DNA of 60,853 bases, counting the filler, from Sphacelaria rigidula (taxonomy: Eukaryota), in the NCBI GenBank assembly GCA_964200075.2. It is 8 parts of 8 records of this genome, joined end to end, with 100 filler letters (N's around TTAATTAATTAA, not from the genome) between each part and the next. Parts side by side here need not be neighbours in the genome. Positions count along the whole stretch, not along the records: positions 30,479 to 37,997 come from CAXNAA020014539.1; 7 more parts are not named here. One strand, 5' to 3'. Shown here one piece after another: positions 1-59,401 of the stretch. The notes beneath the pieces were generated by a model. The model ran no database searches and was not told where the DNA came from. It saw only the letters and a program-made list of their open reading frames with translations. Position numbers and translations under genes: made by a program. The first letter of the stretch is position 1, and each line of letters starts with the position of its first letter.

Positions 1-40
1 GGGCGGGCGGCGCGCTTGGGCTGTTGGGGTTGGTGGCGCG

Positions 41-73
<33 letters not shown>

Positions 74-3824: not shown

Positions 3825-3912
3825 CGTGTGACGCCGCACCCAAACAGAATCGGAAGCGTCCACCACTAGCCCCGTCCCGCGACTTTCTCCGATGGACCAC
3901 GGCGCGTATATG
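3825..3912 (-). CDS. Beta-helix protein exon
   Basis: tccag acceptor, ACG|GTGAGG donor; (D)IYAPWSIGESRGTGLVVDASDSVWVRRHT; phases match both neighbours. Confidence 0.8.
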
Positions 3913-4602: not shown

Positions 4603-4703
4603 TCTTCATATCTCCCGGCATCAATGTTGATGGCGCTCGAGCTTGATACCACAACAGCGTCGCCGTCGCAGTAGCGGACTTCTGTGTCCAGCAGCGTCAG
4701 GTT
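4603..4703 (-). CDS. Beta-helix protein exon
   Basis: Pyrimidine tract plus aacag acceptor, GA|GTACGC donor; NLTLLDTEVRYCDGDAVVVSSSSAINIDAGRYE, a PbH1-like pattern. Confidence 0.8.
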
Positions 4704-5374: not shown

Positions 5375-5479
5375 CTGTGAGTCGAAGACCTCTATGCATC
5401 TAGATCCCAGGCCCGGCACAGCGGTTCCAGCAGTACCACTTTCGGGGTCATAGTGCCCACGAATCCACAAGTCGTCAGT
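5375..5479 (-). CDS. Beta-helix protein exon with GC splice donor
   Basis: tccag acceptor; 105 nt, TDDLWIRGHYDPESGTAGTAVPGLGSRCIEVFDSQ; donor CAG|GCAAGC; joins in phase 0 to give CIEVFDSQNLTLLD. Confidence 0.7.
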
Positions 5480-5650
5480 CTGGATCATGACGATACAATC
5501 AACAGAGCGGAAACGGTATCGTTTACATCTCATAGGAGGTGACGACGATGGATCTTGAGAGCCAGTGCTTGGGAACCCACTCACGACTGGGGAAAAATCG
5601 AATGCGACTTCATTCCTTTCAGTAGACCCTGAGCGTGCGGCAGCTGTTTC

Positions 5651-5652
5651 GT

Positions 5653-5728
<76 letters not shown>

Positions 5729-5750
5729 CATTTGTGTGTGTGGCGTGTGT
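5651..5750. repeat. (TG)n microsatellite inside an intron
   Basis: About 90 nt TG run; other (CA)n runs at about 30282-30329 and 53122-53165. Confidence 0.95.
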
Positions 5751-5873
5751 TGCGATCGCCACGGACTTGCGCTGTACACGCCTACCCCGAGCACGTGGTG
5801 AAAACTCCCGTCTTTGAGCTGATGAATTTCGTCCTTATAAACACCATCGGATGCCTCTGTAAGCCTTACTCAC

Positions 5874-5982
5874 CCTCGCGTCTCTTATTCCGTCGAACAC
5901 TACCATAGCAGCGATATCCGTGTTTCCGGCGGCGCCCTCCTCCAGTATGATCCCCGTGTAGTACGGGGAATCGTCGGAGAAT
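5874..5982 (-). CDS. Beta-helix (pectin lyase fold) protein, first visible internal exon (gene 5'-partial)
   Basis: ttgtag acceptor and AGG|GTGAGT donor; 109 nt starting in phase 2; reads xFSDDSPYYTGIILEEGAAGNTDIAAMVVFDGIRDAR; in phase with the next exon. Confidence 0.75.
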
Positions 5983-7520
5983 CTACAACCATAGAAGGAC
6001 AGGTGGGGGAGGAAAACAAGGGAAATGATGGCAGCTATTCCGGCGGGGTGGCGGGTCCGTAATACTGAACCACGTGAAGTAAGGACGGAGGGGTAGGCAC
6101 AATGATGAAAAGACGAAACATAACATATTTTCTTACCTTAATTCCCACTATACTGGCCCTCTGGTCCTTAAGTACGGTCGTTTCGTTTGTCGTCTCCTCT
6201 GTCCATTCCTCCCCTCGCCCTTACTTCGTGCTTCTTGATTGTTTTGAGTGATAGAAGGGAAGTCGCTGTTCGATTCCGTCCACATTACTGTACTACTATC
6301 AATAAAAGGCTCCATCCATCTACTCGTGCCAACATGTTATTGCATGCAAGATAACCGCACCCAGAATATGGCAAAACTGCAGGCCTTTTTTTTTTGTCTG
6401 AAACGCATTGAGCGAAAGTGCTTTCCCCTTATTTTTCGGTAGCGCCAACGTGAAATCACAGACCATTCACCGAGGCCTCGACGATAAGACAAACATTACA
6501 CACAAACATGCACACAACACGCTGCACCAATGATCGCGGACACGCAAAAGCTGGGGTTTGGGCAATGATTCCCTTCCTCCGGTCTGTCGAAGGAGCCGGG
6601 GGAGATCTTTTGGCAACACCTCGTGCGCAACATGGACTCGAAGATGCAACAAACAGTGCAGTACACTGCTCGTAGTTACAGGTAGTTTGAGACCCCATAG
6701 TCGGTCTTCGTGGCCGGAAGATAGCAGTACCGTCTGTAGTAGTGTTAGCGCCGATATGTCTTTCCTAGCTCCTCAAGTGGCGGATATATTCTGGTCAACA
6801 AAAGCCTCGCGCGCATTCAGCTGAGCGGACAAGGCTCGGAGTTAGTATTGCGCATACGCTGGAACTCTCTGTGCGTGTTGTTAGGCGGCGCAGTTACCAC
6901 GTGGGCCACGAATAGGTTCACGGTTCTTGTTCTTCCGCACTCCAATCAAGCACCACTTCCTTTTTTCATATGACATCTGTTCTGCCCTCTATAAATACAC
7001 AAAATCCTCCGTTGCTGTGACTCATTATTTGGATACGCCACTGAAAAACGTTCCGCGTGTACGATTGGCTGCTACACTTAGCCCGTTCCAGAAACGCTAG
7101 CCTTGACCGCGTAGGGGCGATCTTGGCTGGGTAGCTGTCGAGCCCTTGTCCACAGGTACTGTACACGTTTTCTACTGTCCGGTACAACCTGTTCTTGTGA
7201 GGACGTATACAATTCCACCGCTGAGTTGGAACGCCCCCCTTCCACCCTCGCCCTGCCCCGCGAAACAGGACGCGGAAAAGATATGTAAAACGGTTTTTGT
7301 GTGATGTATGGAAGAAACGTAATGAATGCCGGAATGTTGGAGGTGGCTCTATTAGGAGTAGGAACGGTGTTCCGTATCGAAAGGGATGCGTGATCAATGA
7401 TCAAACAACTAAGGCAAGCAACAAATAAGTACGTCCCCCTCCCGCCCTCGCCAGGGATCGAAGGGGCGGCGTGTAGGGAGAGGGCGTCGATCCAGGTGGC
7501 GGTCCTAGCGTTAAAAACAA

Positions 7521-10444: not shown

Positions 10445-11183
10445 TGGGGAGCCTGGCCCGGCGAAAACCCGGCGTGCTTCGTCCCGGCTTTGTAGGGATG
10501 CGAGGTCAATGGTCTCATGACTATGGCAAGCATGATCATGAGTACACCCCCCTCCCCCCCAGGACCCCCTATGGGGCTGGCGTCCGTTGGCAACAACACT
10601 GTCAAACACATCACGCACTGCGTACGTTAGGCAACCAAGTTAACGATTTTTTTGTGCGCTTGGGTTTTTTTGCGGTGACCATGATGGTGGTCGAACTAGA
10701 GCATGTCGTGCAGGGTGGGAGAATCTCGATTCCGCGCAAAGGGGATCATCATACCAAGTAGGGTCAAAATGATGAGACACCCATGAGGCAGTGCATAAGC
10801 CGTGGCTGTCTCTGGAAATGTCGATACCAGGAAATGTTTCCATTCACTGGAGGCTTTCATCCAAATGTAAGATAATCAGTACGCGACCCGCACAATGCTT
10901 GCAGGATAAAGTTCACCCTTCATGCGACTCGCCGAAGACATCACGGTGCTTCGCGCTTGGTGATTGATCGCGAGCCTGGTTCGGCGAAAACCCTGCGTGC
11001 TCCATCCCGACTTTGTAGGAATGCGTGGTCAATGGCCGTATGACCGTTGCAATCAAGATCATGAGCAGCCCCTCCCCCGGTAATGAGCACCGAAATGTTG
11101 GAGGTATCTCTATATTAGGAGTATGGCTGTCTCGAAAGGATTTCGTGGTCAATGATCAAACGACTAGACAAGCAAAAGTGAGC

Positions 11184-11235
<52 letters not shown>

Positions 11236-11830
11236 CCCTTCCTTCTTTCCGTCCGTCTGTTTGTCCCCCTCCTTCCCCCTCCCTCCNNNNNNNNNNCAAA
11301 CGGGCCCCCGCCCCCCCCCCCCCCCCCCCCGAGTCCGCCCCTAACCCTCTTGGCGGTTGGCGTCGGTTGGCAACGACGCTGTACAACACGCCCCTCACTG
11401 CGTAAGGTAGGCAACGAGGTGATCGTTTTCTTTCCGGTTGCGCTTTATTGTGCTGACCATGACGGTCGAGTGGGATCATATTGTGCCGGGTGGGGGAACC
11501 TCAACTTTGCGGAAAGGAAAAGATCGTTGGCATGGTGAGACAGCCATGAAGTAGGGTAAGCCGTGGCTGTCTCTGGAGATGGCGATACCAAAAAATGAAG
11601 CAACTCATTGGAGGCTGCCATCCATATGCAAGATGATCAGTGCGCTCCGGGCGGAACAATCGTATCAAGATGCAGACCACCCCACATGCTACTCGCCGAA
11701 CACACCACGGCGCTTCGCGGTTGGTGATCGCGAGCCTGGTACGGCGAAAACCCGGCGTGCTCCGTCCCGGCTTTGTAGGGGTGCGAGGTCAATGGTTTTA
11801 TGACTACGGCATGCATGATCATGAGAATCC
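10445..11830. repeat. Cluster of copies of an unclassified dispersed repeat family
   Basis: Recurrent gagcctggtncggcgaaaacccggcgtgct..ggctttgtagggatgcgaggtcaatgg..catgatcatgagtac and cgaaagggatgcgtggtcaatg..aggcaagcaacaaatgagtac; further copies near 7370-7500, 15490-15790, 19985-20100, 53340-53545 (inverted) and 60790-60853. Confidence 0.8.
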
Positions 11831-19770: not shown

Positions 19771-20991
19771 GAGGGGTTCAAAGTGCGACAAAAATAATAA
19801 ATATAATAAATAGTACACATGGACACGACCCGCGGGTGATATATGCCCGTTCTCAATAGTTGGCCGGGATGGTAAGGGAACGCTTCTGCTAGGTCCGTGG
19901 TAGGCTGCGCGTGCCGAGTGAGAGTGGGTAAGATGGGGTCATTATTTTTGTGTCTAGTTGTCAGTAAGTGTCCCCGCCCCCCCGGTGCTCCGTCTCGAAA
20001 GGGATGCGTGGTCAATGGTCGAATGACTAAGGCAAGCAACAAATGAGTACGCCCTGTGTGTGCGGTGAGGGGTGGGAGACAGAGAGAGGGGGGGGGCAAG
20101 GGTTCTCTTGCGTGTTGTGTAATGCGCTCATTCCGTTGTGATGAGTGTAGTAGGTGCATTTCGTGTGTAGTTGCTCGGCGTTGGTGTTCGGTACCTGCCT
20201 TCGTCTGCAGAGCTTGATCGAGTACTATTGCGTGACGATGGTTGAACGTGAAGTTTCAGTGTTTGGTTTTGGTAACATGGTTGTCGCGCAACTTGAACCG
20301 GTGTGGCGAAGAGGAATTGGAACAGAGGGTGGATGTAGGCAGCAATATTCCAGAGGCAAAAAAACGGAAAACACGATCCATTCGAGTGTATGTGAAATAT
20401 GTCTCGCTCGTCAACAGGACGCGGTCTAGTGATTGTAGGGACGCCAGAAGACGAGGAAAGGGACGGGTAACCAGCGCATGTATGCCGTAACGCGCAGCCC
20501 GCGGCAAAACGGGCATTTTCATTTGTCAAGAGGGTGTATGTCGAAACCACACACCCCGCGAAGCCTTCCAAGTCTACATTTGTGAACAACAGACTGAACT
20601 ACACGCTGCCGCGGGTAGCGGTATTCGAGGATACACGTCGCTGTATTAGAGAGGATAGACGGTGGCTTCAGAAGGCGAGGGGTGCTGCAGACTGGAGGGG
20701 AAAATCCTCCTGAGTGATTTATTACACCTTGTCATGGTAGTGTACGAAGTTGTGGGTCTTGGAATGTATCGTTTTGGTGACAACACTTGGTCTTCGACAA
20801 TACGGTAGTACTCATGAATCGATCTACTAGCCAAACATGCAAAGAAGCAATCGAGCACACACCCGAATCATCCATGGCACCATGTCGACTCTTGGGTGTG
20901 AAAATTAGCTTATGGTATTTGCGTTCATGGCACCGTACCTCGACACGTGTGTACATCGCATTAGTTGGGTGCTCCTAGCCACACCTGCTTA

Positions 20992-21468
20992 GGCCGGATG
21001 TTATGGCACACAGGTTTTTGGCACACAAATTGTTTACGTTTGGGACATTTGAGCCACTTTTTGACCCCCAAATGAGGAAAATCGCCAACGCACGTCTTGG
21101 ACACTTTACATCACCCCACAGATAGGAGCCTAGTATGCTTTTCAGATTCACTTGGCTCCAAGGTTTCGAGAGTGGCCGCTGAAGAAAAAATATTGTGCAA
21201 TAAAATTTAACGTGACCTCTACAGATTATTATTGGGCAAACTAGCGGGGGTCGGCAAGCACAGATTCTTGCGCACGAATTTTTGTTCAGCGGCCAATCTC
21301 GAAATCTCGGAATCAAGCGATCCTGAAAAGCAGACTAGGCTCCTCTCTGTGGGGTGTGTCCGAGACGTGAGTTGGCGATTTTCCGTGTTTGGGGGTCAAA
21401 AAGTGCGTCAAACGTCCCAAACATGAACAATCCGTGGGCCAAAAATCTGTTTGCCACAACATCCGGTC
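20992..21468. mobile_element. MITE with long TIRs (PIF/Harbinger-like)
   Basis: tta|GGCCGGATGTTATGGCAC ... GCCACAACATCCGGTC; inverted arms of about 190 bp; same family as 31264-31739. Confidence 0.8.
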
Positions 21469-22399
21469 TTCGTAACGGAAACAAATTACCCAAAATTGCG
21501 TTTGTTTTCCGAACTATTTCGGCACAAACATCGAAACTCCAAATAAAGGCAAATTGAACCCCATCGCGATGTTGAACCCAAAAATCGAAGAGGCCTTATT
21601 CCGTCGACATTTCAAAGTGGTATTCATCTTATCAGCGATATTTACAGAAACAGATACATGTATTCAAATACAGTGCCCAAGAGTTGATGTATCGATCTAT
21701 CGATACCCACCGACCAGAGAAATCAATCGGTCGTGCTCATGTATGTGATGATACATCACCTGGTAGTGTTCTGTCATCACCCCCCATCCCATTTACTGTG
21801 AATTTCAGAGGGGGGCGAACCGAAAAGTTCCCGAACTCTGCCCTGGTGTACGAGCTGGGTCAGCCTAAAAACGGATTTAAGCTCTAAAAGCAATAATATC
21901 TCTTCGACGCAGACGAGTTGGGCCGTGATCCGCATATCGTATTAATCGTCTAATCAAGGGGAAGGTGCGCATCTGCTCAATAGTTTGGGAACATATTTTC
22001 TCATTGATTAAACCCCATGTCTAGTAGTTCCTATACCTAAGGGAGATAGCGCCAATACCTTGCCAATACTAAAATCTTCATGAAGCTCCCGATCGATGCA
22101 TTTAGCGGATGGCGACGAATTTTGGTGTGGAGAACCACAAAAGAGTGCGGAATAAGAAAGAAAAATGGGCCTTCATTTTTTTTTAGTAGTTTTTTAGAGG
22201 TTAGTTAGGGCGTTTTTTGTGAAAAAATGGTCTTCACCATACATAGTAGAACGCCCTAAACCAGTGAAAAAAAATGAAAAAAATCAACCTGACCAATTTT
22301 CGCTCGTTGAATATGCCTTAGAGAGCGCCCATACCAAACTTCAATACGCGAAAAGTAAACGTGGGCCGGTGAGTGGCCTGCAAAATACTGCTCCGAATT

Positions 22400-30331: not shown

Positions 30332-30879
30332 GAAGGTTCGATGGTGGGTAGGCGTGGGAATCGAAAGCAGGTCGTGTTNNNNNNNNNNNNNNNNNNNNNN
30401 NNNNNNNNNNNNNNNNNNNNNNTTAATTAATTAANNNNNNNNNNNNNNNNNNNNNNNNNNNNNNNNNNNNNNNNNNNNGGTGTCCAAGAAAACCGGCCCC
30501 CCCCACCCGCCCCCCCACCCCCCCCCCACCCCCCCCCCCCCCACACCCCACACACACACAGTAGCCCCGAACCTGTCACGAAGGTAATGGCCATATAGCG
30601 CATGATAGCTGGTTTCAGACTGCATAAAGTGCCTCATATCGGCGACATTGGCGAAGATGATCCCAAACGCGGGAGTTCCCAGCTGCTCGGTGTGCTCGGC
30701 TTCTTTCGTCTTGATTCACATGTAGAGCTTGCCTCCCCAAGCCTGCCCCTTTGGGGGGTGGCCATCGCGGCATCACTCTTGACACTTGCGATTTTTGTAA
30801 CGTTGACGCAAACATTTGGGTTGTAATGCATATTTTCAGAACACACAAAAGTCCAACCCTTTCCTGACATTCATCACAG

Positions 30880-31108
30880 AAGCGGACAAGATCGGGTTAG
30901 CATCGAAGAAGAACTTCCTGGAGTTGAACGTTTTCGTTCCATTGGATTCACATGTGTCTCTCTTCGATCTCGTTGTCCCCGGCTGGGGGATCTATTACGC
31001 CCAGATGTAGAAGTGTATCCTTGTCGTAACTTGCATTTTAATGGAATACCAACGGTATCACCTTCTGTGCTTTCTGCTCCAAAAGTATTTCCAACACCGA
31101 AGTTGCAG
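30880..31108 (+). CDS. Candidate upstream exon of the repeat-WWE-PARP gene
   Basis: catcacag acceptor, open frame of 229 nt to CAG|GTGGGG, phase 0 join to 31838; no recognisable motif. Confidence 0.35.
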
Positions 31109-31263
31109 GTGGGGTGGCGGGTCACAGACGACGGTACCCCTCTGTATTGCGATTTTATCTTGACCGATCGTTGAGTCTAAAGATGTTGGCAGGTCGTATG
31201 GGTAGTACACGGTTAGCTTGGGGGAATTCTTGAATTAGTGAAATTATGGGGAAAACCGACCAA

Positions 31264-31739
31264 GGCCGGATGTTATGGCAAACGGATTTTTGGCCCACGG
31301 ATTGCTCACTTTTGGGACATTTGACCCACCTTTTGAACCCAAACAGGGAGAACCGACACACGATTCGGACACTTTGCATCACCCCACAGAGAGGAGCCTA
31401 GTCTGCTCTTCAGATTCGCTTGGCTCCGAGGTTTCGAGGTTGGCCGCTAAACAAAAGTTTGTGTACAAAACTCTGTGCTTGCCGACCCCCGCCAGTTTGC
31501 CCAGTAATCTGTAGAGATCGCCGCAGATTTTGTTGCACACGGATTATTGTTCAGCGGCCGCTCTCGAAACCTTGGAGCCAAGCGAATCTGACAAGTGGGC
31601 TAGGCTCCTCTCTGTGGGGTGATGCAAAGTGTCCGAGACGTGCGTTGGCGGTTTTTCCTGTTTGGGGGTCAAACGGTGGGTCAAACGTCCCAAAGTGAAC
31701 AAGCCGTGGGCCAAAATCTGTGTGCCATAACATCCGGCC
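31264..31739. mobile_element. MITE with long TIRs (PIF/Harbinger-like)
   Basis: GGCCGGATGTTATGGCA ... TGCCATAACATCCGGCC termini with inverted arms of about 190 bp; third, partial copy at 49459-49700. Confidence 0.85.
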
Positions 31740-31837
31740 TGAACAGATGAAAAGTTTGTGCATGCCAGATGTACGCAACACAACGGTGTCCAGTCGATCC
31801 TCTTTTGACAGTGTATTTTTGCCTGTGGTGTATACAG

Positions 31838-32980
31838 GCACAAGGTGAACATGACCTGCCGGTACAGTGGGGGCCACATCCGGTGACGTACACGGCACAT
31901 GACCAATCGTGGCCGGTACGCGAGCTGGAGCATCGCGGAACCCATTATCAAGTACCACCACACGAGACCCTTGCACAACATCCGCAACAGACCCTAGTGG
32001 AGACTACAGCGGAGTGGCAACAGCTACGCATGGTCGAGGCACAGCATCAGCAGGTAGCCCAAAAGCTACGGGCGGTCAAGAAACAGCATAGGCAGGTAGC
32101 CCAACAGCTAGGTGTGGTCCAGGCGCAGCACCAGCAGGAAACCCAACAGCTACGTGCGGTCCAGGCACAGCGCCAGCAGGAGGCCCAACAGCTACGTGCG
32201 GTCCAGGCACAGCGCCAGGAGGAGGCCCAACAGCTAGGCGTGGTCCAGGTGCAGCACCAGCAGGAAACCCAACAGCTAAGCGCGGTCCAGGCACAGCGCC
32301 AGCAGGAGGCCCAACAGCTAAGTGTGGTCCAGGCACAGCGCCAGCAGGAGGCCCAACAGCTAAGTGTGGTCCAGGCACAGCGCCAGCAGGAGGCCCAACA
32401 GCTAAGCGTGGTCCAGGCACAGCGCCAGCAGGAGGCCCAACAGCTAAGTGTGGTCCAGGCACAGCGCCAGCAGGAGGCCCAACAGCTAGGCGTGGTCCAG
32501 GCACAGCGCCAGCAGGAGGCCCAACAGCTAGGCGTGGTCCAGGCACAGCGCCAGCAGGAGGCCCAACAGCTACGCGTGGTCCAGAAAAAGCATCAGCAGG
32601 AATCCCAACAGCTAGGCGTGATCCAGGAACAGCGCCAGCGAGAAGAAAAGGAGCTACATGCCCTCGAGGCCCGATGTACGGGTGAACGCCATCATCTCAT
32701 GTGGGTCAAACCACGATGTCAACGGACACTTGCACACCCTAGTGACTGCCACGCTCAAATTGAGCAAGACGCTCGAAAAAGGTCGCCTGTTCAATGGTGC
32801 GGACGAAATTACCCGATAGTTACGGGTGATACAGTATCGTTCAGCTGGGAGCGTTTTGATCTCTACACGAGCGCTCTGTTGGAGAGCGCATACAAGGTCT
32901 GGCGAGAAGGTGGGCCTGGAAAAGTGTCGTGGAACATCGGCTTCAATATCCACGAGTACGACTTCGTTACCATGCTTCAG
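31838..32980 (+). CDS. Large exon encoding a Gln-rich 14-aa tandem coiled-coil repeat and a WWE domain
   Basis: Lies within the 426-aa ORF 31769-33049; tatacag acceptor; WERFDLYTSALLESAYKVW..KVSWNIGFNIHEYDFVTMLQ fits the WWE pattern; candidate donor CAG|GCAAGG. Confidence 0.7.
32024..32653 (+). repeat. Coding minisatellite, 15 x 42 bp
   Basis: Unit cta(a/g/c)g(c/t)gtggtccaggcacagcgccagcaggaggcccaacag encoding L(S/G/R)VVQAQRQQEAQQ; no spacers between units. Confidence 0.97.
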
Positions 32981-33482
32981 GCAAGGGGATTGCATTCGGG
33001 GGTTTCGGCTGGTGGGTTTACAGTATCCGAGATGTCACTTGGCGAATAGCGCAAACAGTCACGGACGGAACGTTTTGTCCTTCAATGCATGCCACACTCC
33101 CGTGATAACTTCTTGTCTTGACATTCCCTGAGTTCATGTGTGTTGGAGTGTGGAGAGTTGCTTGTTCCCGCCATAATTTTAACCCGTTTCCTTCCTCCGG
33201 GCTAGTTAGTAGTAACAAAGGATCGACTCCTTTCTCCTCCCGTACGAGCTGGGCCATCCAAGGGTCTATCGAAGGCGGATCCGCACACAGGGGTGCATAC
33301 ATAGGGTTGTTCCGTAGAGTGCTGTACGGTGCTGTGCTTTACCGTGCTGCGCGTTTCTGTACCACTATACTGTACTGTGCTCGATCCGGGATACAGGGTG
33401 CAGTTGACGGCTACAGGATAATATTCTTGAGCGTGGTGGAGTAGAATGATGTGCCCTGCTCCCCTCACTATCGACCACCCAG

Positions 33483-36400
33483 CAATCGCGCTGTTGGTCG
33501 TTCATGCGCCCCATGTACTCGAGGGTTTGTGATGCCGTGAACAAACTCATGAGAAGATGCACCGAATGTGTTCATCTCTCGGATATTTTCCGTCCTGAAG
33601 CATGTCGCTACAAATGTGAGCTACGAAACACACGCCACGTAAACCCTTGAGGTAGAACTCACATCGTTCCCCACCCGCTTGATTACCAATCGAATCATTC
33701 CTATTTCGTCTCTTGGATTCCTCACTTGCTCTGCAGTGTACCGCCCCTAGTGAATCCCTTTTGTCATCCAACACTACAAGGCGATCGCTACTATCCTTCC
33801 ACCGGGGATACCTTGTCCAGGTTGAATGCCCTCTGCAACCGCATCATCTGTTTTCGCCTGCCAAACCGCCCCTGAATCTTTTTGTCTGAACGTATTGCGT
33901 GAAAGTTCATCTACACCAACGGTTTTCTCGTTGAATTACCGCCGGTTGAATGCCAGCCGGAGCAAGGTGGGTAGCGTCTCGGTTGGGTCCTGAGTGGAAC
34001 GTGTACTCTGAGGGTCAAGCCCAGGTTCCCTGATCGTGATCTAAGTTGCGATGCGGATGTAGCAGGCGGGGAGCTGGCGTTTCATTCGGGGTGCACTAAT
34101 ATCAAACGAAGTAGAATAGCTCACCGCAGCGTGCACCCAATCCCTGGCCGCTATCTGCGATGTTCGTCAACTACTGGCAGAAGGCGATGCCTAGACAGCG
34201 CTGCTGTTAATCGCTAGTGGCCTGCCTTGTGCGCCTAAAGTCACAGTTCGACCCTGTCTGCTGCGTGCCATTTTCAGTAATTGCGCAAATGATCGACATT
34301 CCTCTTGACTAGTACGACCCCGCGTAAGTCTGAAATCTTCATGGATCTTGCCGTTTTTTACTGTATGCGAGTAATCCCGATTCCCTGCAAATGGAGAAAC
34401 GCGAGGCACCCGCACTATTTTGCAATTTTTGTGTTGCCCGAAAATTAAACATTCACCTCAAGGGGGTGGTGGTGGGGTCGCGTTTTTTCGGAGTTACAAT
34501 ATATCAAGCGGCTTGGGTCGAATGTCCCTAAGCTCAATTCCAACCGAAACGATTGAATCCCCATGAAAGATGGCACAAGCTTTGAGCGTCAGGGGGATCA
34601 TCTGCTGAATATCACCTCACTTGAAACTGAGTACAAGACCCTTGTGGCCCGAGTCTGGCTGTCCAAACCTGAGAAACTGAGCCCCTTTAATTCAGTAAGC
34701 GCCAACGTTTGGTTTTGGCAAGCGTGAGCCACCCAAACTGAGACGCTACATTATGTTTTCGCCATGTCGGATATGGTGAGTCGAGGCAGAAATCGCGCCT
34801 CTTCTGTGCCAATTCGATGTTGCTTCAACCATACGTAGTGCATTAACCTGCGGGGTGGTGTCTAGTTTGCCTTGTATCAGTAAGCCTCGCAGATTATACA
34901 AAAGCTGTGCGTGACGCAGTGAATCTAGCTGTCCTACATAGCTCGAATCCCACCGCCCATGCAGTCCACACTGGACCATGTCTTCGTGTTCTGTGTCCAT
35001 GCTTTTGCCGGCATCGCTACGGTCTAAATTAGTACTACTCGTCGTGCACGCTGCACGCTGGTGCCTAAGTGCAGGGTATATTAACACATTCCCGTACAAC
35101 ATTCGTACGACGTTGACGTGTAGAGTAGCGTGGAATGTCGGCAGGCGACCTGCTTGTCTGCCCTCAGTGTTGTTCTCCAGGTTTTCAGACGTATTTATAA
35201 CCTTTCCCCTTCCTAGTGACGAGCCTGTAGCCTCACGGATGATACCATATCTCACCCGGTGCATCCCTGGCATCATCATGTCGCAGATTTGATCAGAAAT
35301 CTCAATTCGTCGACTCTCCTCACATATTATGCCATTTACATCTTCACGTTCACAGCGACGGAATCAAGACCTTGTCAGGAAAATGCGCACTTGGCGGGAT
35401 TCGATTCCTCAACCTTCCGCCCTGGAAGGTTTTCATGGTAACACTTAAAACACGGGGGCACCGCGGCCTGTGTTGGACAACGCTAGACCGTAAGGTAATA
35501 ACTGGAAAGCATCCCAACAGCAACAGCGCTTGACCAGGCTGACAACCCCAGCAATCATTGAGATGCATCTTGAACACGAATCCAATCCTGCTTTTTTGTA
35601 GTTAGACTGCTGAGGTCCCGCGGCTTATCATTTTGGCTTCACGTTGACTCGAAAGTTGACGATATTCGCCGCACACAGCGCATATCGCTTGTGCTGTCTC
35701 AGTGCACATTTTTTGCTGTGCTGCACTAGTCTACTGTTCACTTGACACCGTCGTCTCTACCCATGTGTTTGGCACTGACTTGATGCGTATATTCGACTGT
35801 ACAGTCACCTCAACCATGAGACCACGGCTGGACCCCTGGGGGGTCAGTTAAAGCGCGACAGTCAATCAGATCATTCAAACTTGGAAAAAAAAGTGCGTTC
35901 GAGTACGCTCCTTCCTGTGTGCGCTGCGCTTGTACCAACGGCTTCACCAATATGAACACAGGTCAAGACGTGACCCTAGAGTCATGGCAGGACGGTCTCT
36001 TGCCGGAGATCACTGCATTACGCTAGTTTTCAATGCGTTTTGATGCCGAATCCCCGAGTAGGGTAGTACTATCGTCTACTCTTCTTGTACATCAGATGGG
36101 TGAGTAGAAATAATGGGTCTCAGCCACTACCCTACCGTCAAGTCTCCCATCCTACAACAGGAACATCTCGGTGAAGATACCAGACTGCTACTTCTCTGAG
36201 TTGCTCCGTTTTGGTCCGATGGGTTTCCAGGACCATGTCTCGTCCTCAAGAGCAGAGAACCGCGCGCATGTAGCGAACAGGTGACTATTCTTCTCCCGGC
36301 CCGAATTGGTTTTGGCCCCTACCCGTACTCAAACTCCTCCAGCTACCCGGAAAAAGAGAACTGACGCTCCGATGGTATTGCCAAGATGAGTTTCCGTCAT

Positions 36401-36650
36401 GGCGTTCGATGCCCCAAGGTCCTTGTCGCAGGTAGTGCGGCGTGTGGTGGGCGATGTGTGCTGTTGACTACGGGTTTATTGATGTGTGTTGGTTGCCGGG
36501 TGTGCAATATTTGAGCCCTCCTTGCGCAAACATGCAGAGATGGCAACCTGATGCAAACGATCCGCTACAACCAACACCGAAACATCGACCTTGAAGTACG
36601 AAATCTCGAGTGCCGCCTGTCATGCATCCGGAGTATTCGGTAAGTTTCTG
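33483..36650 (+). pseudogene. Disrupted PARP-like catalytic region following the WWE exon
   Basis: Candidate exons: 33483-33524 (QSRCWSFMRPMYSR, completes WWE); 34509-34694 (ND*IPMKDG..LETEYKTLVARVWLS, TGA at 34554-34556); 35356-35494 (RRNQDLVRK..LEGFHG, frameshift, TLKTRGHRGLCWTTLDRK); MHPEYSVSF at 36622-36648. Confidence 0.55.
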
Positions 36651-36797
36651 CTGTAGTCGAGGAAGATTTGTTCCGTGTATTTCACACGTCGGACGGATCA
36701 GCTGGTGACAGATCTGGGTCAGCTCATTTGGGGCATAGATCATGATCCGTCTGAGGTGAGCTGTCACCCGTATACGTTTGTCCGATGCTGATCCGTA

Positions 36798-37698
36798 TAA
36801 TAGTCAGCATCAGAAGTTTTCAGAATTCGTAGTTGTTGTAGTTCTTGAGTTTTTCTCGAGTCATTCTTCATTACTACTTGAAAGTTCTAGCGCCGGTCGA
36901 TTCAGGGGAAAGCGTAAGCCGCGCTCAAACTGCAGTGCCCAAGTTGGTGTTTTGGGGCGATACGGACCAGATACCCCGTTTATCAGGAGGGTGTTATCGA
37001 CCGTTTTTGGTCCTTTAAAAACAGTTTTCCGGCTCTCCCGCAACGAAGCGGTAAATGTTTATATAAATGAATACGTCTACAATTCTTCACGATAACGATC
37101 GAGATCGTGTTTCCCTCCCATACTGCACAGACCTCAGTCTAGCATTTTCTGCGGGTGGCCTCTTTTCGTTATCTTTCGCATAACATTTTCCATGAGCACT
37201 CGAAAGTGCTGGCGTCGATAGTCTCGTCAAAATGAGCAGACCGTGCTCAAATCACAATGCCCAAGTTGGTGTTGTGGGGGCGATACGAAGTAAAGACTCC
37301 GTTTATCAGGAGAGTGTTTTTGACTGTGAATGATCCAAGAAACATAATTTTCCGCCTTTAGCGCAGTAAATAGGTGAAATTAAAAAAAAATCATCTTTTT
37401 TGAGTCTTCACTTCTATGATCGGGATCGAGTCGGTGCACCGAAAATACCGAAAAGCTAGAACCTGGGGTTGCACTTCCGCAGGACCCCCGAAGATCGGTC
37501 AAGCCCCATAGGTCACTCAATATTGATCGCAGATATTGTTTCTTTCAATATTTGTCAAGAGGATGAAAATATCGCCTGGTGACCGTTTTTTAGCGTCCAA
37601 CAACCACCGTGATGAGCAGTGGCAAGTGACACAAATTTGGAAAATCTTTGAGAAACTGAGAAACTACGGATTCTGCATACTTTTGACGCTGACTACTG
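36798..37698. mobile_element. Tc1/mariner-like non-autonomous element with TA TSD
   Basis: ta|taatagtcagcatcagaagttttcagaattcgtagtt ... aactacggattctgcatactttttgacgctgactactg|ta; the same left end recurs at about 15075-15140. Confidence 0.65.
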
Positions 37699-39770
37699 TA
37701 GGACCCGCATGACCCGTACATGTTTGCCGAGCGACGAGCTGTACGACTCGCTTCACGCACACACTTTCGTGTACAACTGATCTGAAGACCCGTGTCATCT
37801 ATCCAACATCACATACTTTTCATTTATATCAGTGTTGCATATCGGACCGAGAATAAAGTTCGATATATATTTTTAGAATATCGAACCACATCCGCCGATA
37901 TCGACATTTTTGTCGATATTCCGAAAATGACACGATACGTATCGAATATCGATATTCGCTACGATATGACTGTTTTGGTATGGCGGCTGTGTACAAGNNN
38001 NNNNNNNNNNNNNNNNNNNNNNNNNNNNNNNNNNNNNNNNNTTAATTAATTAANNNNNNNNNNNNNNNNNNNNNNNNNNNNNNNNNNNNNNNNNNNNCGA
38101 AGATTTTAATCCTCCGGGTTCTCATCCTCAATGAAAAGCACCATCCTCAACATAGATGATCGGCTGTTAGAACAGCCGATGAGGCTTATTAGGAAAGGCG
38201 TGTCTGGCGTATGCACTATTTCCAGGTGCAGGTACAAACTGTAGTTGGGGTGTTGTGCGCATCAGGTAGTGCACAGATTCATCAAGCAGTATGAGTCGCC
38301 GTCGAGAGATGTTAAAAGGACGTGGCGACCGCCGCCAGCCACTTGTGGCTTTTGATTATATGATTGTCCCCATCACCATGCCAGACATCCCTTTGTGAAA
38401 GGGGTGGTTCGCGATTCCCCTCTTTGTTACAAGCGGAAAATTTTCTTCGAAGGGCATGAGCGTTGTGCCGCACCCACAGTACAGTACGCCCCTCCGACTG
38501 AAGCAGCGGCTGCCGCTACATACTCCTTTACACGTTTTGGGCAGTTCTCCACGACGGAGATAAGCTACCCATACACAGCTTGCTCGTTCCCGTCGATTGC
38601 ATACGACCCCACTGCATTCTGTACCGCCTTCACAGAGGGATACGCAGAACTCACGCCTCTAGCTTCGTCGCTCGTTCTACTGCGTTGCTAGATTCAGCCG
38701 GCATGTGAACATGGGCACAATAACGAACAATATCCTACTCTGTTGTCGCTGACTTGCAGCGTGATGTTCGGCGTACTGAACTCTTCTCTCACACTTTCAC
38801 GATTCTCGCAATACCGGCTGTGCAATCATTACCACATGGTATTGCTGCGCACTGGGGTGATGAGAGTGTCCCGCACTGTATTACCCTGGGGTACCACGAT
38901 ACAAACACTGTACTGTACTCGAAGAATTATTCGCCGCCTGCCTGCTCTTCGGCTTTCATTAGTCCGCGATGCCGCACTCGTGCAAAAAATAATCGTCCGT
39001 TTACAGAACTACTTCACAAATCTGTGAATCTAAAAAACGGTCCCCATGGATTTGACTTCTTCAGCAAAGTTGTGTCCCATTTGCACAGATCAGGATATCC
39101 ACGTTGTCGAGATTCGTTCCCATACAAGGATAATAAGGGTTACAGAGTCATTCTATAAAATGATAATATCCACTGAAATAATGGGTACGGTTGAAACTGT
39201 TCGCCGTATTTTCTACGGTGCGGGTGGTACGATCACCACTTCACAAAAAAGGGCACGCACATGAGCATACAAGGGTACATACGTGACTGCAGAAGGGTAT
39301 GATACACTTTTAGCAGAGAGTCGGGTGTACCTTCCTTGTTTTTCGACAGATGAGGGTGCTTTAACAGGCTCTCCCTTCCCCCTCGTGGTGAAGCCTAATG
39401 CCATGAGTCAAAGAAAATATAGTCGGGCATGCTGCCAAGGCACCTTGGGCGTGGGGCTGAGGCGCTGGAACGTGTTTTTCGACCTGCTCTGTCCACGTTC
39501 AGCGCCACGCCCCACACGGATAAGTGCGGTACTCTTTTCGCTCCACAAACGACAAAAGTATTTCCTTCAATGAAAAGAGGGAAGTTTTTGTTGGAAGGTC
39601 GAACACCGTGCAGTGATGCCGCTCTTGTGAGCCTACACCCGCGCCTTTGTACTCCACGATGCAACTAGTAAACTACGGAAGCGTGATCATATGTAGGCTG
39701 CTGTTCGCCAGTCAAAAGTTTCCTTGTACAGGTCACTGTAGATGTCATGGGTATAGCTTGAAAATATTTG

Positions 39771-40325
39771 CAGATACCGCACTTTATTTCCAGCTGTATG
39801 TTTTAAGGTCGCTTCTTAGAGACTGAAGAAAATCTGTCTGAGAAGTGCCCTTTTGAACCTTTCACCTCGGATTATTGGCGGAAAACGGGCCTTGGCGGGT
39901 TTGGCCCCCTCGGGAAGATTTGCTCCATTTTTCACGAGGATTCCAGCGCGCTTGTCCGATCTTTCGTACTCCCAGTTTTACTCTTGGCCGGATTCTGGAT
40001 TCTCTGGATTTTTTCAGTCGCCGCGAAAATCGTCCAGTTGTCGGGAAAAATACGTACTTTTTGCCGACAACTCGAAGTTTTTTCAGGTGACTGAAAACAT
40101 CCAGAATCTGGCCAAGAGTAAAACTGGGAGTACGGAAGGTCGGACAAGCGTGCTGGAATCCTCGTGAAAACTACAGCAAATCTTTCCGAGTTGGCGGACT
40201 TGGCCCGTATTCCGCCAATAATGCGTGATGGAAGGTTCAAAACGGCAGTTGTCAGAGAGATTTGGTTTCAGTCTAAAATAAGAAGCGACCTGAAACCGTT
40301 TCAAATGTCTCAAAAGTGGATACTG
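39771..40325. repeat. Fold-back inverted repeat of about 550 bp
   Basis: Arms such as cacgaggattccagcgcgcttgtccgatctttcgtactcccagttttactcttggcc and ggccaagagtaaaactgggagtacggaaggtcggacaagcgtgctggaatcctcgtg; centre near 40053. Confidence 0.9.
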
Positions 40326-48220: not shown

Positions 48221-50559
48221 TTAACGTCCGCAAGGCCACCATAAACCACAGCACGCGTGTGATGTGTTTCATGACCAGTGGCATCGGCTGCCCCATCTCT
48301 TGCCGCGAGGACATAATTTATGATCTCACGACCATCTACTGGTGGCAACGATTCTGTCGGATCCTCTTCAATTGAGGGCTGATCGAGTAAACTTCTCGGC
48401 CGCCTCCCAAGAACCCTTTGGAAATATTGACGTCTCGAGCTGGTTTTGTTTACTTGGCTACCGGTGCCCACCTCTAGAACTTGTTCCCCAGGTGAGTGGT
48501 GCTACGGTGGGGATGCAAACATTTTTCTGAGGTTCGGATTGCTAGGAGCCCTCCATCTCCTGCAAGAAACGCAGATGAGTAGTTTTACTCGTACGGCAGG
48601 GATGGCACAAATATTTTCTGAGGTTCGAAATTGCAAAAGCCCTCCATCTCATTTTAAAAACGAGTTGACACGTATTGAACCACGTGAGGGCACGCCGCGA
48701 TGTATAGCACTCCAATGGGATAGGGCTATCTCGAATGAATTTGACAGCAGGAATGTCCTGGCTCATATTCTTGCGTAGCCCCTGAACTTGGGAGCCCCTC
48801 AATGAGAAAGATCTGCACGAAATGTGCAACCCCGAGCTTGACATGACTTGGATATGGGCTAACATTTCGTACAGATCTTACACAACTTTTATGAGGATGA
48901 ATAGCGGCCGGTTTGGGGTACAGTTGTGGACATCGACACCCATCTACCTAAAAAATCAAGTCTAAAGCAATGGGCTAATCAGTATCGATCGCGAGTACTC
49001 TACGTGTCACCTCGAAATATAGACCTGGCTCATATGAAATGCATCATACTTTGGTTTGTTGCGTGCGCTTCACACGCATCCAACCAGGGAATCATGAAAT
49101 AAATTTCCTTCACGCGTCCCACGAACGCTGCACGCTAACAAAGTATACTAGAAATACTTTTTTTGTTTCTGGGGCTCTTAAGGTCTGCTGGGGCGATCTG
49201 AGCAAAGGTGTCTGACCATTCTCTAGCTCTTGTGTGTGTACTGTGTGTGCGGCGGGCTGTAAAGCGCCACAGGTCGGCTTTCTTCCTGTGTGCCGAGACA
49301 AACGCGATGAAAGTGCTGCAGTTGTCGTATACTATAATCAACTTCGTAGGGGACGAAGCGTGTGTCCTACTCCAGACCGCTTGGAACAGCTGATGGCGTG
49401 TCCATTACTCCTCCGCGTTATTTCCATCTTTTTTCCTGACCAGTTTTTTCTATCGTTAGGCCGGATGTTAGGGCAAACAAATTTTTGACCCACAGATTGT
49501 TCACTCTTGGGACGTTTGGCCCACGTTTTGACCCCCAAACCAAGAGAACCGCCAACACACGCTCGGACACTTTGCATCACCCCACAGAGAGGAGCCTAGT
49601 CTGCTTTCAGATTCCCCTGGCTCCGAGGTTTCGAGATTGGCCGCTGAACAAAAATTCGTGGGCAAAAATCTGTGCTTGCTGACCCCCGCCCTGTCCCCTC
49701 TAGTGTACATATACAGCAGACGATCCGAGAAGCGATGACTCTAGCACTCAATGGGCAGTGCCTTGCACATACTGCACGGTATGGCAGTATTGTCTTTCAT
49801 TCCGGCCCATGTTGTATTTTACAGCAGAAAGTACCCGAGTCGGCCGCCAAATTTCATCGTGTAACACTTCTAGCCGAGCTGCATGCGGCCAACTCTCAAC
49901 CGAAAATTCGCGCAACTAGGTGTCGGTCAAAGGCCCATCGATGAAAAACCGGTATGACCTGTCGTGTATCAGCAACTACAGCCGTAGTAACAGCTCAACT
50001 AGGAAACTGATGACTGCATCGTTACTTATTATACGGATGTGAGAAAATGACGAAGGTCAAGATAACCCGCCCTGGCCGATTGAACTGCAACAACCAGGAA
50101 AACCCGCAAGGCCACACGCCGAAGAAAGCGTCAACGACCGATCACACAGGACAGCGGTGGATCAGCTTCCGTGTTAACTCGGCCTCCCCCATTTATCCCG
50201 TGTCGGGTACAAAGCAGGACCCGAGTGATGGTACGGTAGGAGTGCACAAATATTTTGTGAGGTCATAATTGTTGGAAGCCCTTTAGCTCATGCAAAACAC
50301 GACCTACGAAAATATGTGAAAGTACGCCAGGATTACTCCTCCAATGTGCTGGGGATATCTCAAATATATTTGCAAACGGGGATGCCCTGAACCATATTTT
50401 TGTCCATCTAGAATTGTTAGAAGCCCCTGAACTAGACATAACTTCGCAAAAAAAGTACGCCCCCACCGCAGCATTGCTCACTCTCTCTCCATCATTTCCA
50501 TACTCAATTGCGATGATCGGCTGTTGTATCAGCGGTGGCGGCTCTCCGATCGACGGCTC

Positions 50560-54730: not shown

Positions 54731-54999
54731 CAATTCTTATCGTTGAACTATTTTTGCTCTCAAGTTGAATACGCACCGGGTGTTCTAGTTGTGCAGGATC
54801 CTTTCTATTGTTAGGATCAAGGCCGAAATCGGTACGAGTTAGGTTGCTACACCTCGTAAGACGTGGTACATGATGTAACCTGTAACCTTCGCGGGAAATA
54901 TTGCGCAGGGTGCGGCACACGCACACCCAGTGATGAAAATTCCTAGAACGACTGTTCGCATCTGCAAAATCAATACCGTACAGCAGCTGTAGCACATAC

Positions 55000-55269
55000 C
55001 TGTTTCATTCGTATCGCGGTCTCCAGCCGCGAGGCTACAGCATCTATTCGACTCCCCAGCCGCAAGCAATTCAGCGCCTGGTTCTTCTCTCGAATCGCAT
55101 TTTGCCCGTAGATACGTGCGCCCTCGATGTTGCCCGCCTTGATGGCTTCTCTTAGCTTTGCCTTCGCAGCTGCCTCGTTTTTCTGGCACTTGAGTGCGCT
55201 CCGCTGCTGCTGTTTCGAAGTAAGCCTCAGGTTGATGAGCTCATTCTCCAGCGACACTTTGTTTCCCAT
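55000..55269 (-). CDS. CHMP1: ESCRT-III subunit CHMP1/Did2/Vps46, exon 1 (gene 3'-partial)
   Basis: 270 nt from ATG to CAG|GTATGT; LINLRLTSKQ..AIKAGNIEGARIYGQNAIREKNQALNCLRLGSRIDAVASRLETAIRMKQ is the CHMP1 signature. Confidence 0.93.
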
Positions 55270-56365
55270 GGTTTTTACTGCCGTAACGTACCTCTCCCCC
55301 CTCTCTCCCCGCTATTGTTGCTTTCCCCCTTATATTTTTGATGACACGCAGTCACTGCCACCACAGTTAAAGCAGTGGCAGGGTACTGCGGGCTTTTCCT
55401 AGGTGGGCCTCGATTGGCGGTACCGTCACCGTTGTTCCCTGTGAATTCCTTGGTACCGTTCTTCCTTTTCTTCCGTACTGTCTGTAATGTTGACAGTTCG
55501 CGTTTTCTGTTGCCCACCGTGCCTGTAGAATAGTTCGATAACTGACGTTTTCAGCAGAAGCCGAAGAAATGAGAAGGCGTAAGAATACTTCGAATAGCAG
55601 GCTGCACACGCGCAGTGAGCTGGGTTGCTGTAGGTGGTTGTCGTAGATGAAGGTAATGCAACCCTCTGGAGGCACTTGCCAGCCGAGGGCACTGCTCCGA
55701 TAAAATGTACCGCATCAATAAATGTTAATATTTATCATAAAACAAGACCAAAATTAACGCGAGGTATTAGTTGGTAATGGACGCAAAATCTGCTGTCAGC
55801 CAAGCGCAGAGAAATCTGATCACCCGAACACGGAAAGGACGTGTGTAGCAAGGTAAGTCTGCAGTTCACTAGCTCACGGTATATGGCGTGCCTTCGTGTC
55901 GTGGGAGGTATGATGCATCCGATGCAGAGTGTCTGCTTAGATCGTCTCTCAGAATCATGTCGCGCAAGCTAACGCAGAAAGAGATGAGACCAAAAACTGC
56001 TTTACGGTAGTGACTGCCGTTTTGTACTGACTGTTCTTCATGTACTCTGTAGCATTCCGCACGACAACTGATGTCTGTTTAGTGTAGGTTCCTGGACTAA
56101 TGTATTTCCACCTCGGACGATGACCCACGACCTCACGAACTTCACCAAATGCATCAACACGTAAAACCGACAGCGTCTGTCGCAAGTTCTGATAACGAAC
56201 ACACCCTTTGCTCCAGTATTCAGTATCGTTCAAAGTGCACATCCTCTGCCACTACTCTCGTTTGACCGACCGATCTCGCACATCGTCCAGCAGGTAGCGC
56301 ACCACAAGCGAACCGAGGGCACTCTTCCCCTCGCGAGGATCGCGGTCACGGCCACCGCAGCGACC
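55270..56365. promoter_or_regulatory. Divergent intergenic region, possible bidirectional promoter, between CHMP1 and METH
   Basis: Start codons point away from each other about 1.1 kb apart in one contig; no recognisable repeat in the interval. Confidence 0.55.
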
Positions 56366-56581
56366 ATGGCAAAGACCGAGCAAAAGTTCAAGCCGTTCCT
56401 TGAGGAACCTACGGGCTCAGTGGCTGAATATCCTCTCTTTGATAGAGGCAAGGGCGATAGCTGCATGGCCTACATGTACCGGCTTTTTCAGGAGAGACTC
56501 GTCATGTACGATGGCGCTATGGGCACCATGATTCAGAAATACAAGCTCGGCGAGGAAGAGTACCGCGGGGAGCGCTACAAG
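56366..56581 (+). CDS. METH: Cobalamin-dependent methionine synthase, exon 1
   Basis: accATGg start; RLVMYDGAMGTMIQKYKLGEEEYRGERYK is the MetH homocysteine-binding domain start; AAG|GTACGC donor; 216 nt. Confidence 0.95.
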
Positions 56582-59273: not shown

Positions 59274-59401
59274 GACTACCACACGTTGGTTAGGGGCAAC
59301 AACGACATGCTGACTCTGACGCAGCCCGACATCATTAAGGACATTCATGTCCAGTATTTGGAGGCGGGTGCGGACCTCATTGGCACCAACACGTTCTCTT
59401 C
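59274..59401 (+). CDS. METH: Cobalamin-dependent methionine synthase, exon 2 (gene 3'-partial)
   Basis: gtcag acceptor, TC|GTGAGT donor; [42 protein letters not shown]; phase 0 join with exon 1. Confidence 0.95.

What the first reader, a model, noticed from the sequence alone, without database searches (positions are those of the whole stretch)
30880..36650. Unusual gene architecture: tandem coiled-coil rod + WWE + decaying PARP-like domain
Seen: a 381-codon open exon with fifteen 14-aa repeats and a WWE-like segment, then phase-compatible candidate exons carrying PARP landmarks in the right order: (W)xPM..EYxxL, RNxxL..ExFHG, LCxxxLDRK and HPEYxVxF. Established: WWE-PARP fusions (PARP7/11/12/13/14 in animals, RCD1/SRO in plants) act in ADP-ribose signalling, stress and antiviral defence. 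Inference: a lineage-specific, fast-evolving ADP-ribosylation gene with a variable-length stalk, possibly part of an undescribed algal defence family. This is the best candidate for a novel system here, though the YGxGxY segment could not be identified convincingly.
Basis: partly seen in the sequence, partly recalled or inferred. Interest (0 to 1): 0.75.

Follow-up and report, generated by a model that had tools for sequence, protein, structure and literature searches.

The report
Algal rod-WWE gene; PARP part unproven
This is a spliced, expressed algal gene whose large exon encodes fifteen 14-residue repeats, predicted to form a coiled-coil rod, ending in a WWE domain that likely binds ADP-ribose poorly; the main mRNA skips the PARP-like scraps that follow, and these match PARP profiles no better than random DNA.

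Summary
The exon is real. Window 31838-32980 (381 codons) holds fifteen 14-aa repeats and a WWE domain (Pfam E 0.005; AlphaFold model matches solved WWE domains). Four transcriptome-like runs of one study splice it exactly at both ends. The window is a string of unlinked 7.5-kb contigs. The upstream exon lies on contig C17532; the downstream exon, which completes the WWE, was found neither in the window nor in the assembly. So the PARP-like pieces (34557-36650) sit inside an intron and are skipped by the main mRNA. They give no Pfam, PDB or custom-profile hit. Only a hand-picked motif chain beats shuffles, so an old PARP relic is possible (about 35%) but unproven. A relative's exon has 5 repeat units where this gene has 15, which supports a length-variable stalk. 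Three ADP-ribose-pocket residues are changed here (W to G, Y to H, R to H). An intact WWE-PARP12-like paralogue with the same WWE intron exists elsewhere in this genome. Verdict: a divergent rod-WWE variant of a known family; catalytic domain and defence role are not shown.

The parts
31838..32980 (+). Coding exon, 381 codons, phase 0 at both ends; AG acceptor, non-canonical GC donor
   Evidence: sequence; contig depth 52-148 on the exon against 2-7 on the intron; loose ends at both borders in 4 of 4 RNA-guess runs; DNA contigs run through both borders
31838..32017 (+). N-terminal His/Pro/Gln-rich segment of the exon, no Pfam family; weakly conserved in the relative P0001
32018..32647 (+). 15 tandem 42-bp units (14 aa, QQLxVVQAQRQQEA type), predicted coiled-coil rod; copy number rests on the assembly alone
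   Evidence: no laid contig bridges the array
32648..32773 (+). Three older, degenerate 14-aa units in the same register, colinear with the relative
32774..32980 (+). WWE domain up to the conserved Gln (codon 32978-32980); Gly at the second Trp position (32801-32803), His at the phosphate-binding Tyr position (32951-32953)
32981..37997 (+). Intron of the main mRNA; it runs past the contig end. The next exon (starts MDTRTKMQHP) was not found in the window or in G000
34557..34694 (+). PARP-like scrap 1 (IPM..EYKTL), preceded by TGA, followed by a GTAAGC donor-like site; intronic, no profile support
35356..35518 (+). PARP-like scrap 2 (RNQDL..EGFHG, frameshift, LCWTTLDRKVITGKH); intronic, best-looking piece
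   Evidence: not detected
36161..36660 (+). PARP-like scraps 3 (CYFS, TGDY, HPEYSVSF) in several frames; intronic
   Evidence: not detected
33011..36231 (+). Minor splice join (alternative GT donor after 33011 to AG acceptor before 36231), one contig in 1 of 4 runs; reads out of the PARP-like frame to a stop near 36364
31259..31749 (.). High-copy palindromic (MITE-like) repeat in the intron before the exon; not part of the gene product
30479..37997 (.). Contig G000:C14539 (7519 nt); the flanking window segments are other, unlinked contigs

Best explanation
An expressed, spliced gene encodes a short N-terminus, fifteen 14-residue repeats predicted to form a coiled-coil rod, and a WWE domain that likely binds ADP-ribose poorly; it is likely a diverged offshoot of an algal WWE-PARP12-like family, and its main mRNA skips the PARP-like scraps in the following intron. 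Shown: exon borders, splicing, repeat array, WWE fold (predicted model), skipping of 32981-37997. Inferred mechanism: the rod self-associates (Leu at position 3 and Val at position 6 of each unit) and acts as a spacer of about 250 residues that presents the WWE and whatever follows it. The rod grew by about ten units through recent unequal crossover or slippage inside one exon. The WWE keeps the adenine-binding Gln and a Thr but has lost the stacking Trp and the phosphate-binding Tyr and Arg, so it would act as a protein-contact or weakened reader module rather than as a poly-ADP-ribose sensor. Any catalytic domain would be encoded by exons off this contig; that part was not seen.
For: Splice joints at both exon borders in 4 of 4 RNA-guess runs, with an upstream GT donor on G000:C17532 (exon 2385-2549, in-frame ATG at 2487). 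DNA contigs of X1 and X3 run unbranched through 32543-35840, so the exon is single copy with this intron. The downstream loose end translates in frame to the WWE's last strand, colinear with P0004 after the same Gln. WWE: Pfam PF02825 E 0.005; relative P0001 at 45% identity over 110 aa, E 2.4e-21, has WWE at 34.2 bits, over the cut-off; model pLDDT 80.8; Foldseek ranks 1-5 are HUWE1/TRIP12 WWE, E 0.49-1.0; VIA-align ranks 1-11 of 30 listed are WWE-bearing chains, best Z 5.5, rmsd 2.2 over 52 residues. Same phase-0 intron after MLQ as the WWE exon of the intact WWE-PARP paralogue. Pocket residues by alignment and spacing to HUWE1 W1619, Y1658, Q1667, R1676. Rod 15 against 5 units. Unbiased PARP tests on the intron are null.
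Against: The 3' part of the mRNA is known for only 30 bases, so the domain content after the WWE is unknown. The four runs come from one study, are contigs and are only guessed to be RNA. The WWE Pfam score is under the curated cut-off (17.6 against 21.1) and no fold match is individually significant (Foldseek none at E <= 0.001; VIA Z < 8). The Arg-to-His call assumes no gap after the splice. The coiled coil was not modelled or tested; position 10 of the expanded units is mostly Arg/His where the relative has mostly Cys/Phe, which would weaken it. A hand-picked motif chain in the intron does beat shuffles (0 of 3000).
Confidence: 0.55

Rival explanations
1. The intronic scraps are a real but old relic of a PARP7/11/12-type catalytic domain (a decayed duplicate of the gene's 3' half, or its original exons, now bypassed). 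This concerns the origin of the scraps and does not exclude the best explanation.
For: Landmarks in the right order behind a WWE exon whose paralogue is followed by a PARP. FHG plus [ILV][CLIAV]xxx[FL][DNS]x[RK] at fitting distance: 11 of 3000 dinucleotide shuffles; with PEYxVxF downstream 0 of 3000; among 130 real 5-kb tiles only this locus and the true PARP on C6451 had the first pair. By eye LCWTTLDRKVITGKH resembles ICREGFDWRVCGKHG of L117 and the PARP12 segment. Simulated decay of a true PARP gene by 30% or more falls to noise level in my aligner, so an old relic would be missed. Splice-like signals flank some scraps, and one is used at low level.
Against: The motifs were chosen after seeing the sequence; the same regex missed the true PARP exon on C17022. 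No Pfam hit with stops read as X and no PARP among PDB hits. The hand read-through with X at 8 breaks was not reported by 3 custom PARP HMMs; against 23 PARPs its best score (42) only equals the best of 100 shuffles. Splice- and frameshift-aware alignment scored at or below the null mean in 10 of 10 settings; 24 of 69 PARP fragments tested singly gave best z 1.3; objective block chains gave 8-103 of 150 shuffles at or above the observed score in 8 settings. GC3 of the scraps is 0.52, intron GC 0.50. No second copy in G000. The exon that completes the WWE lies downstream of the scraps, which needs an extra rearrangement.
Confidence: 0.35
2. The gene is an intact rod-WWE-PARP mono-ADP-ribosyltransferase whose catalytic exons lie on other contigs, for example the orphan PARP12-like gene on G000:C17022 and C2289, which has no 5' part found.
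For: The paralogue P0004 has WWE directly followed by a PARP12-like domain (Pfam PARP E 1.1e-19, WWE E 7.4e-8; PDB best PARP12, E 2.2e-27). G000 holds a second set of such PARP exons with His, Tyr and Ile at the triad positions and no upstream exons found. Run X9 has 342 further bases beyond the WWE exon in one contig.
Against: No sequence links the two: no end overlap between C14539 and C17022, and the joining exon is absent from G000. The degenerate WWE pocket and low GC3 (0.54 against 0.61-0.82 for the PARP exons) fit a gene under other constraints.
Confidence: 0.3
3. A transcribed gene under relaxed selection, on its way to becoming a pseudogene; the repeat expansion and the pocket changes are neutral decay.
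For: The upstream exon (165 nt, phase 0-0) is open except for one TAG three codons before the ATG, as a nonsense change in a coding exon would look. Three pocket changes against relatives, low GC3, core positions of the new repeat units turned polar.
Against: The 381-codon exon has no stop or frameshift, is spliced exactly at a GC donor shared with the relative (P0001 reads through the same ARGL), and its contigs are 10-30 times deeper than the intron's in 4 of 4 runs. An in-frame stop before the ATG is normal for a 5' UTR.
Confidence: 0.2

Closest known systems
WWE-PARP proteins of clade 3 (human PARP7, PARP11, PARP12, PARP13, PARP14; PMC4245714 section 3.1.5, PMC11269756 passages)
   Same: WWE fold; an intact algal paralogue (P0004; G000:C20453 + C6451) has WWE followed by a PARP12-like domain and shares the WWE intron position.
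   Different: No PARP domain shown for this gene; no CCCH finger or macrodomain seen; a 15-unit Gln-rich 14-aa rod precedes the WWE; three pocket residues are changed.
Single-WWE readers HUWE1, TRIP12, RNF146 (PMC11269756 passages)
   Same: Best structural matches; the adenine-binding Gln and the Thr five residues later are kept.
   Different: Gly for the stacking Trp, His for the phosphate-binding Tyr and, likely, for the Arg; no HECT or RING domain seen.
Plant RCD1/SRO1 (WWE-PARP-RST, catalytically inactive; PMC2964712 and PMC4245714 passages)
   Same: A possible functional analogy: WWE protein with degenerate ADP-ribose chemistry acting by protein contacts.
   Different: No RST or PARP domain shown; no sequence link tested.
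Ectocarpus ROCO-LRR and NB-ARC-TPR candidate immune receptors (PMC3341825 abstract)
   Same: Repeat number varies fast in an algal gene.
   Different: There each repeat is its own exon and the families are large; here the repeats lie inside one exon of a single-copy gene, with no LRR, TPR or NB-ARC.

Membership tests
WWE domain (PF02825) | Profile match at the curated cut-off | tested here: inconclusive
   17.6 bits, E 0.005, cut-off 21.1, on an exon that lacks the last strand; relative P0001 passes at 34.2 bits
WWE domain (PF02825) | WWE fold (half barrel covered by a helix) | tested here: met
   Model pLDDT 80.8 from a 5-row alignment; top 5 Foldseek and top 11 VIA-align matches are WWE-bearing chains; single-sequence model was unusable (pLDDT 43.5)
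ADP-ribose-binding WWE | Pocket Trp, Tyr, Gln and Arg (HUWE1 W1619, Y1658, Q1667, R1676) | tested here: not met
   Gln kept; Gly, His and His at the other three by alignment and spacing; binding itself not testable here
Clade-3 WWE-PARP (PARP7/11/12/13/14) | PARP catalytic domain (PF00644) downstream of WWE in the same mRNA | tested here: inconclusive
   Not met by the in-window scraps, which are skipped and give no hit; the real downstream exons are off the contig and were not read
Clade-3 WWE-PARP (PARP7/11/12/13/14) | H-Y-(I/L/E) triad with the G-x-Y-F-A block | tested here: not met
   Scraps have FHG and a CYFS, no YGxGxYFA and several frameshifts; met by P0004 and the two other genes in G000
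Clade-3 WWE-PARP (PARP7/11/12/13/14) | Shared ancestry with the algal WWE-PARP gene (intron position) | tested here: met
   Phase-0 intron directly after MLQ in both WWE exons; one shared intron, no tree built
Plant RCD1/SRO | WWE-PARP-RST architecture | not testable with these tools
   3' exons not available; no RST hit in the window pieces scanned
Brown-algal exon-shuffling receptors (ROCO, NB-ARC-TPR) | One repeat per exon; multi-gene family | tested here: not met
   All repeats in one exon; single copy in G000
Coiled-coil rod | Heptad pattern and self-association | tested here: inconclusive
   Leu at position 3 in 17 of 18 units and Val at position 6 in 15 of 18; position 10 mostly Arg/His; relative has weak coiled-coil-family Pfam hits; no model or complex run

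The most novel reading that the evidence does not exclude
Algae of this lineage carry a little-described PARP12-like WWE-PARP branch, and this gene is a fast-evolving decoy derived from it: it bypassed its own catalytic exons (leaving the intronic relic), blunted its ADP-ribose pocket and tripled an intra-exonic coiled-coil stalk, to act as a length-tunable bait or dominant-negative partner in an ADP-ribosylation defence circuit.
Probability: 0.12. Interest if true: 0.65.

Novelty: new variant of a known kind. Interest (0 to 1): 0.3.

Why it matters
A Gln-rich 14-aa rod fused to a WWE was found in only one other sequence among 1.84 billion representatives, and six paper searches returned no study of WWE proteins in brown algae. 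The work-up also shows intact PARP12-like genes in this genome, a lineage once listed as PARP-less and later corrected (PMC2964712, PMC4245714 passages). If the gene is a decoy or an enzyme on a variable stalk, it gives a handle on ADP-ribose signalling in algae. As it stands it is a divergent single-copy gene with a known domain and an unseen 3' end, so its interest is modest.

Tried and rejected
Homologue searches with the WWE region among longer proteins found nothing (weak evidence by the tool's own note). The ESM Atlas gave no usable hit twice; a blank shows neither novelty nor absence. P0002 and P0003 were dropped as chance: LysM and PKD repeat proteins. PDB sequence search of the WWE exon gave no WWE. 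No run was on record as RNA; X6-X9 are treated as transcriptome-like because their contigs join at splice sites. The search for related loci with P0004 or a part of it found no relatives in viral or metagenome contigs; plasmids gave one distant hit. tblastn and a spliced aligner with P0004 did not pick the scraps. Rejected: the 30880 exon as the gene's start; neighbouring window segments as genomic context (unlinked contigs); C2309's WWE half as part of this gene (it lies about 10 kb upstream of PARP exons of another type; not linked by any search). Three look-ups of earlier findings returned nothing. A search of G000 aimed at the exons between WWE and PARP of the second PARP gene was not run, so only the whole-P0004 search bears on it. 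No complex prediction, no tree and no dN/dS were run. The supplement of PMC4245714 is held as 331 characters only and its Table 1 was not readable, so its Ectocarpus PARP list, which may bear on novelty, was not seen.
Full report
Context. The window is not continuous genome. It is eight segments of about 7.5 kb joined by N runs and a TTAATTAATTAA linker. Places 1-7520 are contig C14535, and the finding lies on C14539, 7519 nt, window 30479-37997. Contig numbers follow length, so the neighbours are unlinked. The genome has 27,214 contigs and is incomplete. The organism is an intron-rich eukaryote, held also by an 'algae metagenome' run.

The exon. A 432-codon open frame at 31751-33049 contains an exon at 31838-32980 with an AG acceptor and a GC donor. 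Four runs of one study, guessed to be RNA, have contigs of depth 52-148 on the exon and 2-7 on the following intron, and all 4 of 4 have loose ends exactly at 31837 and 32980. DNA contigs of X1 and X3 run through both borders and are unbranched from 32543 to about 35840. The exon is therefore spliced and single copy. The upstream loose end maps to G000:C17532, exon 2385-2549, with AG and GT borders, an ATG at 2487 in frame with the window exon and a TAG at 2478. The downstream loose end translates in frame as MDTRTKMQHP. It was not found in the window even with 6 errors allowed, nor in G000 (absence in an incomplete assembly proves nothing). Everything from 32981 to the contig end is thus intron of the main mRNA. 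One contig in 1 of 4 runs joins 33011 to 36231; that product leaves the WWE unfinished, is out of the PARP-like frame and stops near 36364.

The rod. Tandem Repeats Finder gives 14.8 copies of 42 bp, which is 15 units of 14 aa followed by three degenerate units. The only true relative among 1.84 billion representatives, P0001 (3 hits at E <= 0.001; the other two are unrelated repeat proteins), is 45% identical over the non-repeat part. It has eight degenerate units, five of them where this gene has fifteen. The stalk length therefore differs between lineages by about ten units, made by recent duplication inside one exon. The Leu-3/Val-6 pattern suggests a coiled coil; position 10 is mostly Arg or His here and mostly Cys or Phe in P0001. 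No laid contig bridges the array, so the count of 15 rests on the assembly.

The WWE. Pfam scores it at E 0.005, 17.6 bits, under the cut-off of 21.1; P0001 passes at 34.2 bits. An AlphaFold model from a five-row alignment has pLDDT 80.8. Its first five Foldseek matches (E 0.49-1.0) and first eleven VIA-align matches (Z 5.5-3.8) are WWE-bearing chains. PMC11269756 (passages) names the pocket: a Gln that bonds the adenine, a stacking Trp, and a Tyr and an Arg for the phosphate (HUWE1 Q1667, W1619, Y1658, R1676, with Asp at 1621-1622). P0001 reads W-C-W-R-D-D and P0004 keeps Tyr nine before and Arg nine after the Gln. The window protein has Gly at the second Trp, His at the Tyr and, if there is no gap after the splice, His at the Arg. 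I infer weakened ADP-ribose binding.

The family. An intact algal protein, P0004, has a weak KH-like hit, a WWE and a PARP domain, closest to PARP12 among solved structures (E 2.2e-27). Its counterpart in G000 is split over C20453 (WWE) and C6451 (five PARP exons); a second set of such PARP exons lies on C17022 and C2289. The C20453 WWE exon ends at the same phase-0 intron after MLQ as the window exon. The second PARP gene has no 5' part found and could be this gene's 3' half; nothing links them. Clade-3 PARPs are reported from all eukaryotic supergroups (PMC4245714 section 3.1.5).

The PARP-like scraps. The landmark strings exist in order. For them: a motif chain written after seeing the sequence occurred in 0 of 3000 shuffles, and its first pair in 2 of 130 real tiles, this locus and the true PARP on C6451; the same regex missed the true exon on C17022. 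Against them: Pfam gave nothing relevant for 14 pieces or 8 read-throughs with X at stops; PF00644 did not list C14539 among 7 matches in G000; PDB searches gave no PARP. I collected 60 metagenome loci with a PARP motif; 57 had it in an open frame and 22 were long enough for a 23-sequence profile with P0004; a 96-fragment profile followed. A hand read-through with X at eight breaks was not reported by three HMMs and did no better than the best of 100 shuffles against any of 23 PARPs. A splice- and frameshift-aware aligner scored the intron 35.5 against a null mean of 45.7 (35 of 36 tiles at or above), and 18 of 36 with looser penalties; true PARP contigs scored 377 and 207. Eight further settings gave 24-33 of 36. 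Single fragments (24 of 69 tested) gave best z 1.3. Objective block chains gave 2-28 of 36 tiles and 8-103 of 150 shuffles at or above the observed score. Simulated decay shows that the aligner still sees a PARP at 10% substitution, partly at 20% and not at 30%. A recently broken ordinary PARP is thus unlikely; an old or already odd relic is not excluded. I put it at about 35%. No second copy of the scraps is in G000.

How it most likely works. Shown: a spliced mRNA for a short N-terminus, rod and WWE that skips the scraps. Inferred: the rod self-associates and spaces the WWE from the N-terminus; the WWE works by protein contact or as a weakened reader; any enzyme activity would come from unseen exons. 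Rivals, not exclusive: a real PARP relic in the intron (0.35), an intact enzyme completed on other contigs (0.3), a decaying transcribed gene (0.2). A defence role is a recalled analogy to animal PARP12/13 and to algal receptor families (PMC3341825, abstract only); the repeats here are not exon-per-repeat and the gene is single copy, so that model does not fit.

Literature seen. PMC4245714: passages, section 3.1 part 1 of 3, section 3.1.5, and one supplement held as 331 characters. PMC2964712: passages. PMC11269756: passages. PMC3341825: abstract and outline. Searches listed no paper on brown-algal WWE proteins; the library lacks most subscription journals.

Verdict. Observation partly confirmed, interpretation partly supported. 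New variant of a known kind; interest 0.3.

Noticed in passing
window 1-60853: Eight unlinked contigs of about 7.52 kb concatenated with N runs and a TTAATTAATTAA linker; adjacency in the window means nothing.
   Followed up: yes
G000:C20453:125-340 (L013) and G000:C6451:2789-8254 minus (L016): Intact-looking WWE exon and five PARP12-like exons, 58-94% identical to P0004; a clade-3 WWE-PARP gene split over two contigs.
   Followed up: yes
G000:C17022:6549-6671 minus (L020) and G000:C2289:1226-3327 minus (L076): Second PARP12-like gene without a found 5' part; the two contig ends form the arms of one inverted repeat (97% over 71 nt), so they may be adjacent. Possible 3' half of the window gene.
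   Followed up: partly
G000:C2309:154-240 and 10499-11494 (L011, L012): C-terminal half of a WWE about 10 kb upstream of PARP exons of another type (LWHGTN motif); possibly another WWE-PARP gene.
   Followed up: no
G000:C1570:7581-7718 and G000:C4171:8966-9133: Further divergent PARP-like exons.
   Followed up: no
window 56366-56581 and 59290-59400 (+): Exons with a homocysteine S-methyltransferase domain (PF02574, E 5.9e-10 for the second), likely methionine synthase.
   Followed up: partly
window 54970-55311 (-): Open frame starting MGNKVSLE that looks like an ESCRT-III CHMP1/Did2 exon (label recalled; no Pfam hit).
   Followed up: no
window 31259-31749, 20982-21473, 49446-49690, 39802-40295; short repeat 35815-35870: High-copy palindromic, MITE-like repeats; depth over 100,000 in DNA runs for the first and the last.
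   Followed up: no
window 32981-32982: GC splice donor; the relative P0001 reads through the same ARGL sequence, so the non-canonical donor looks conserved.
   Followed up: partly
G000:C17532:2385-2549 (L043): Upstream exon is a multiple of three and open except for one TAG just before the ATG; 5' UTR or a nonsense change. Run X8 has 97 more bases upstream.
   Followed up: partly
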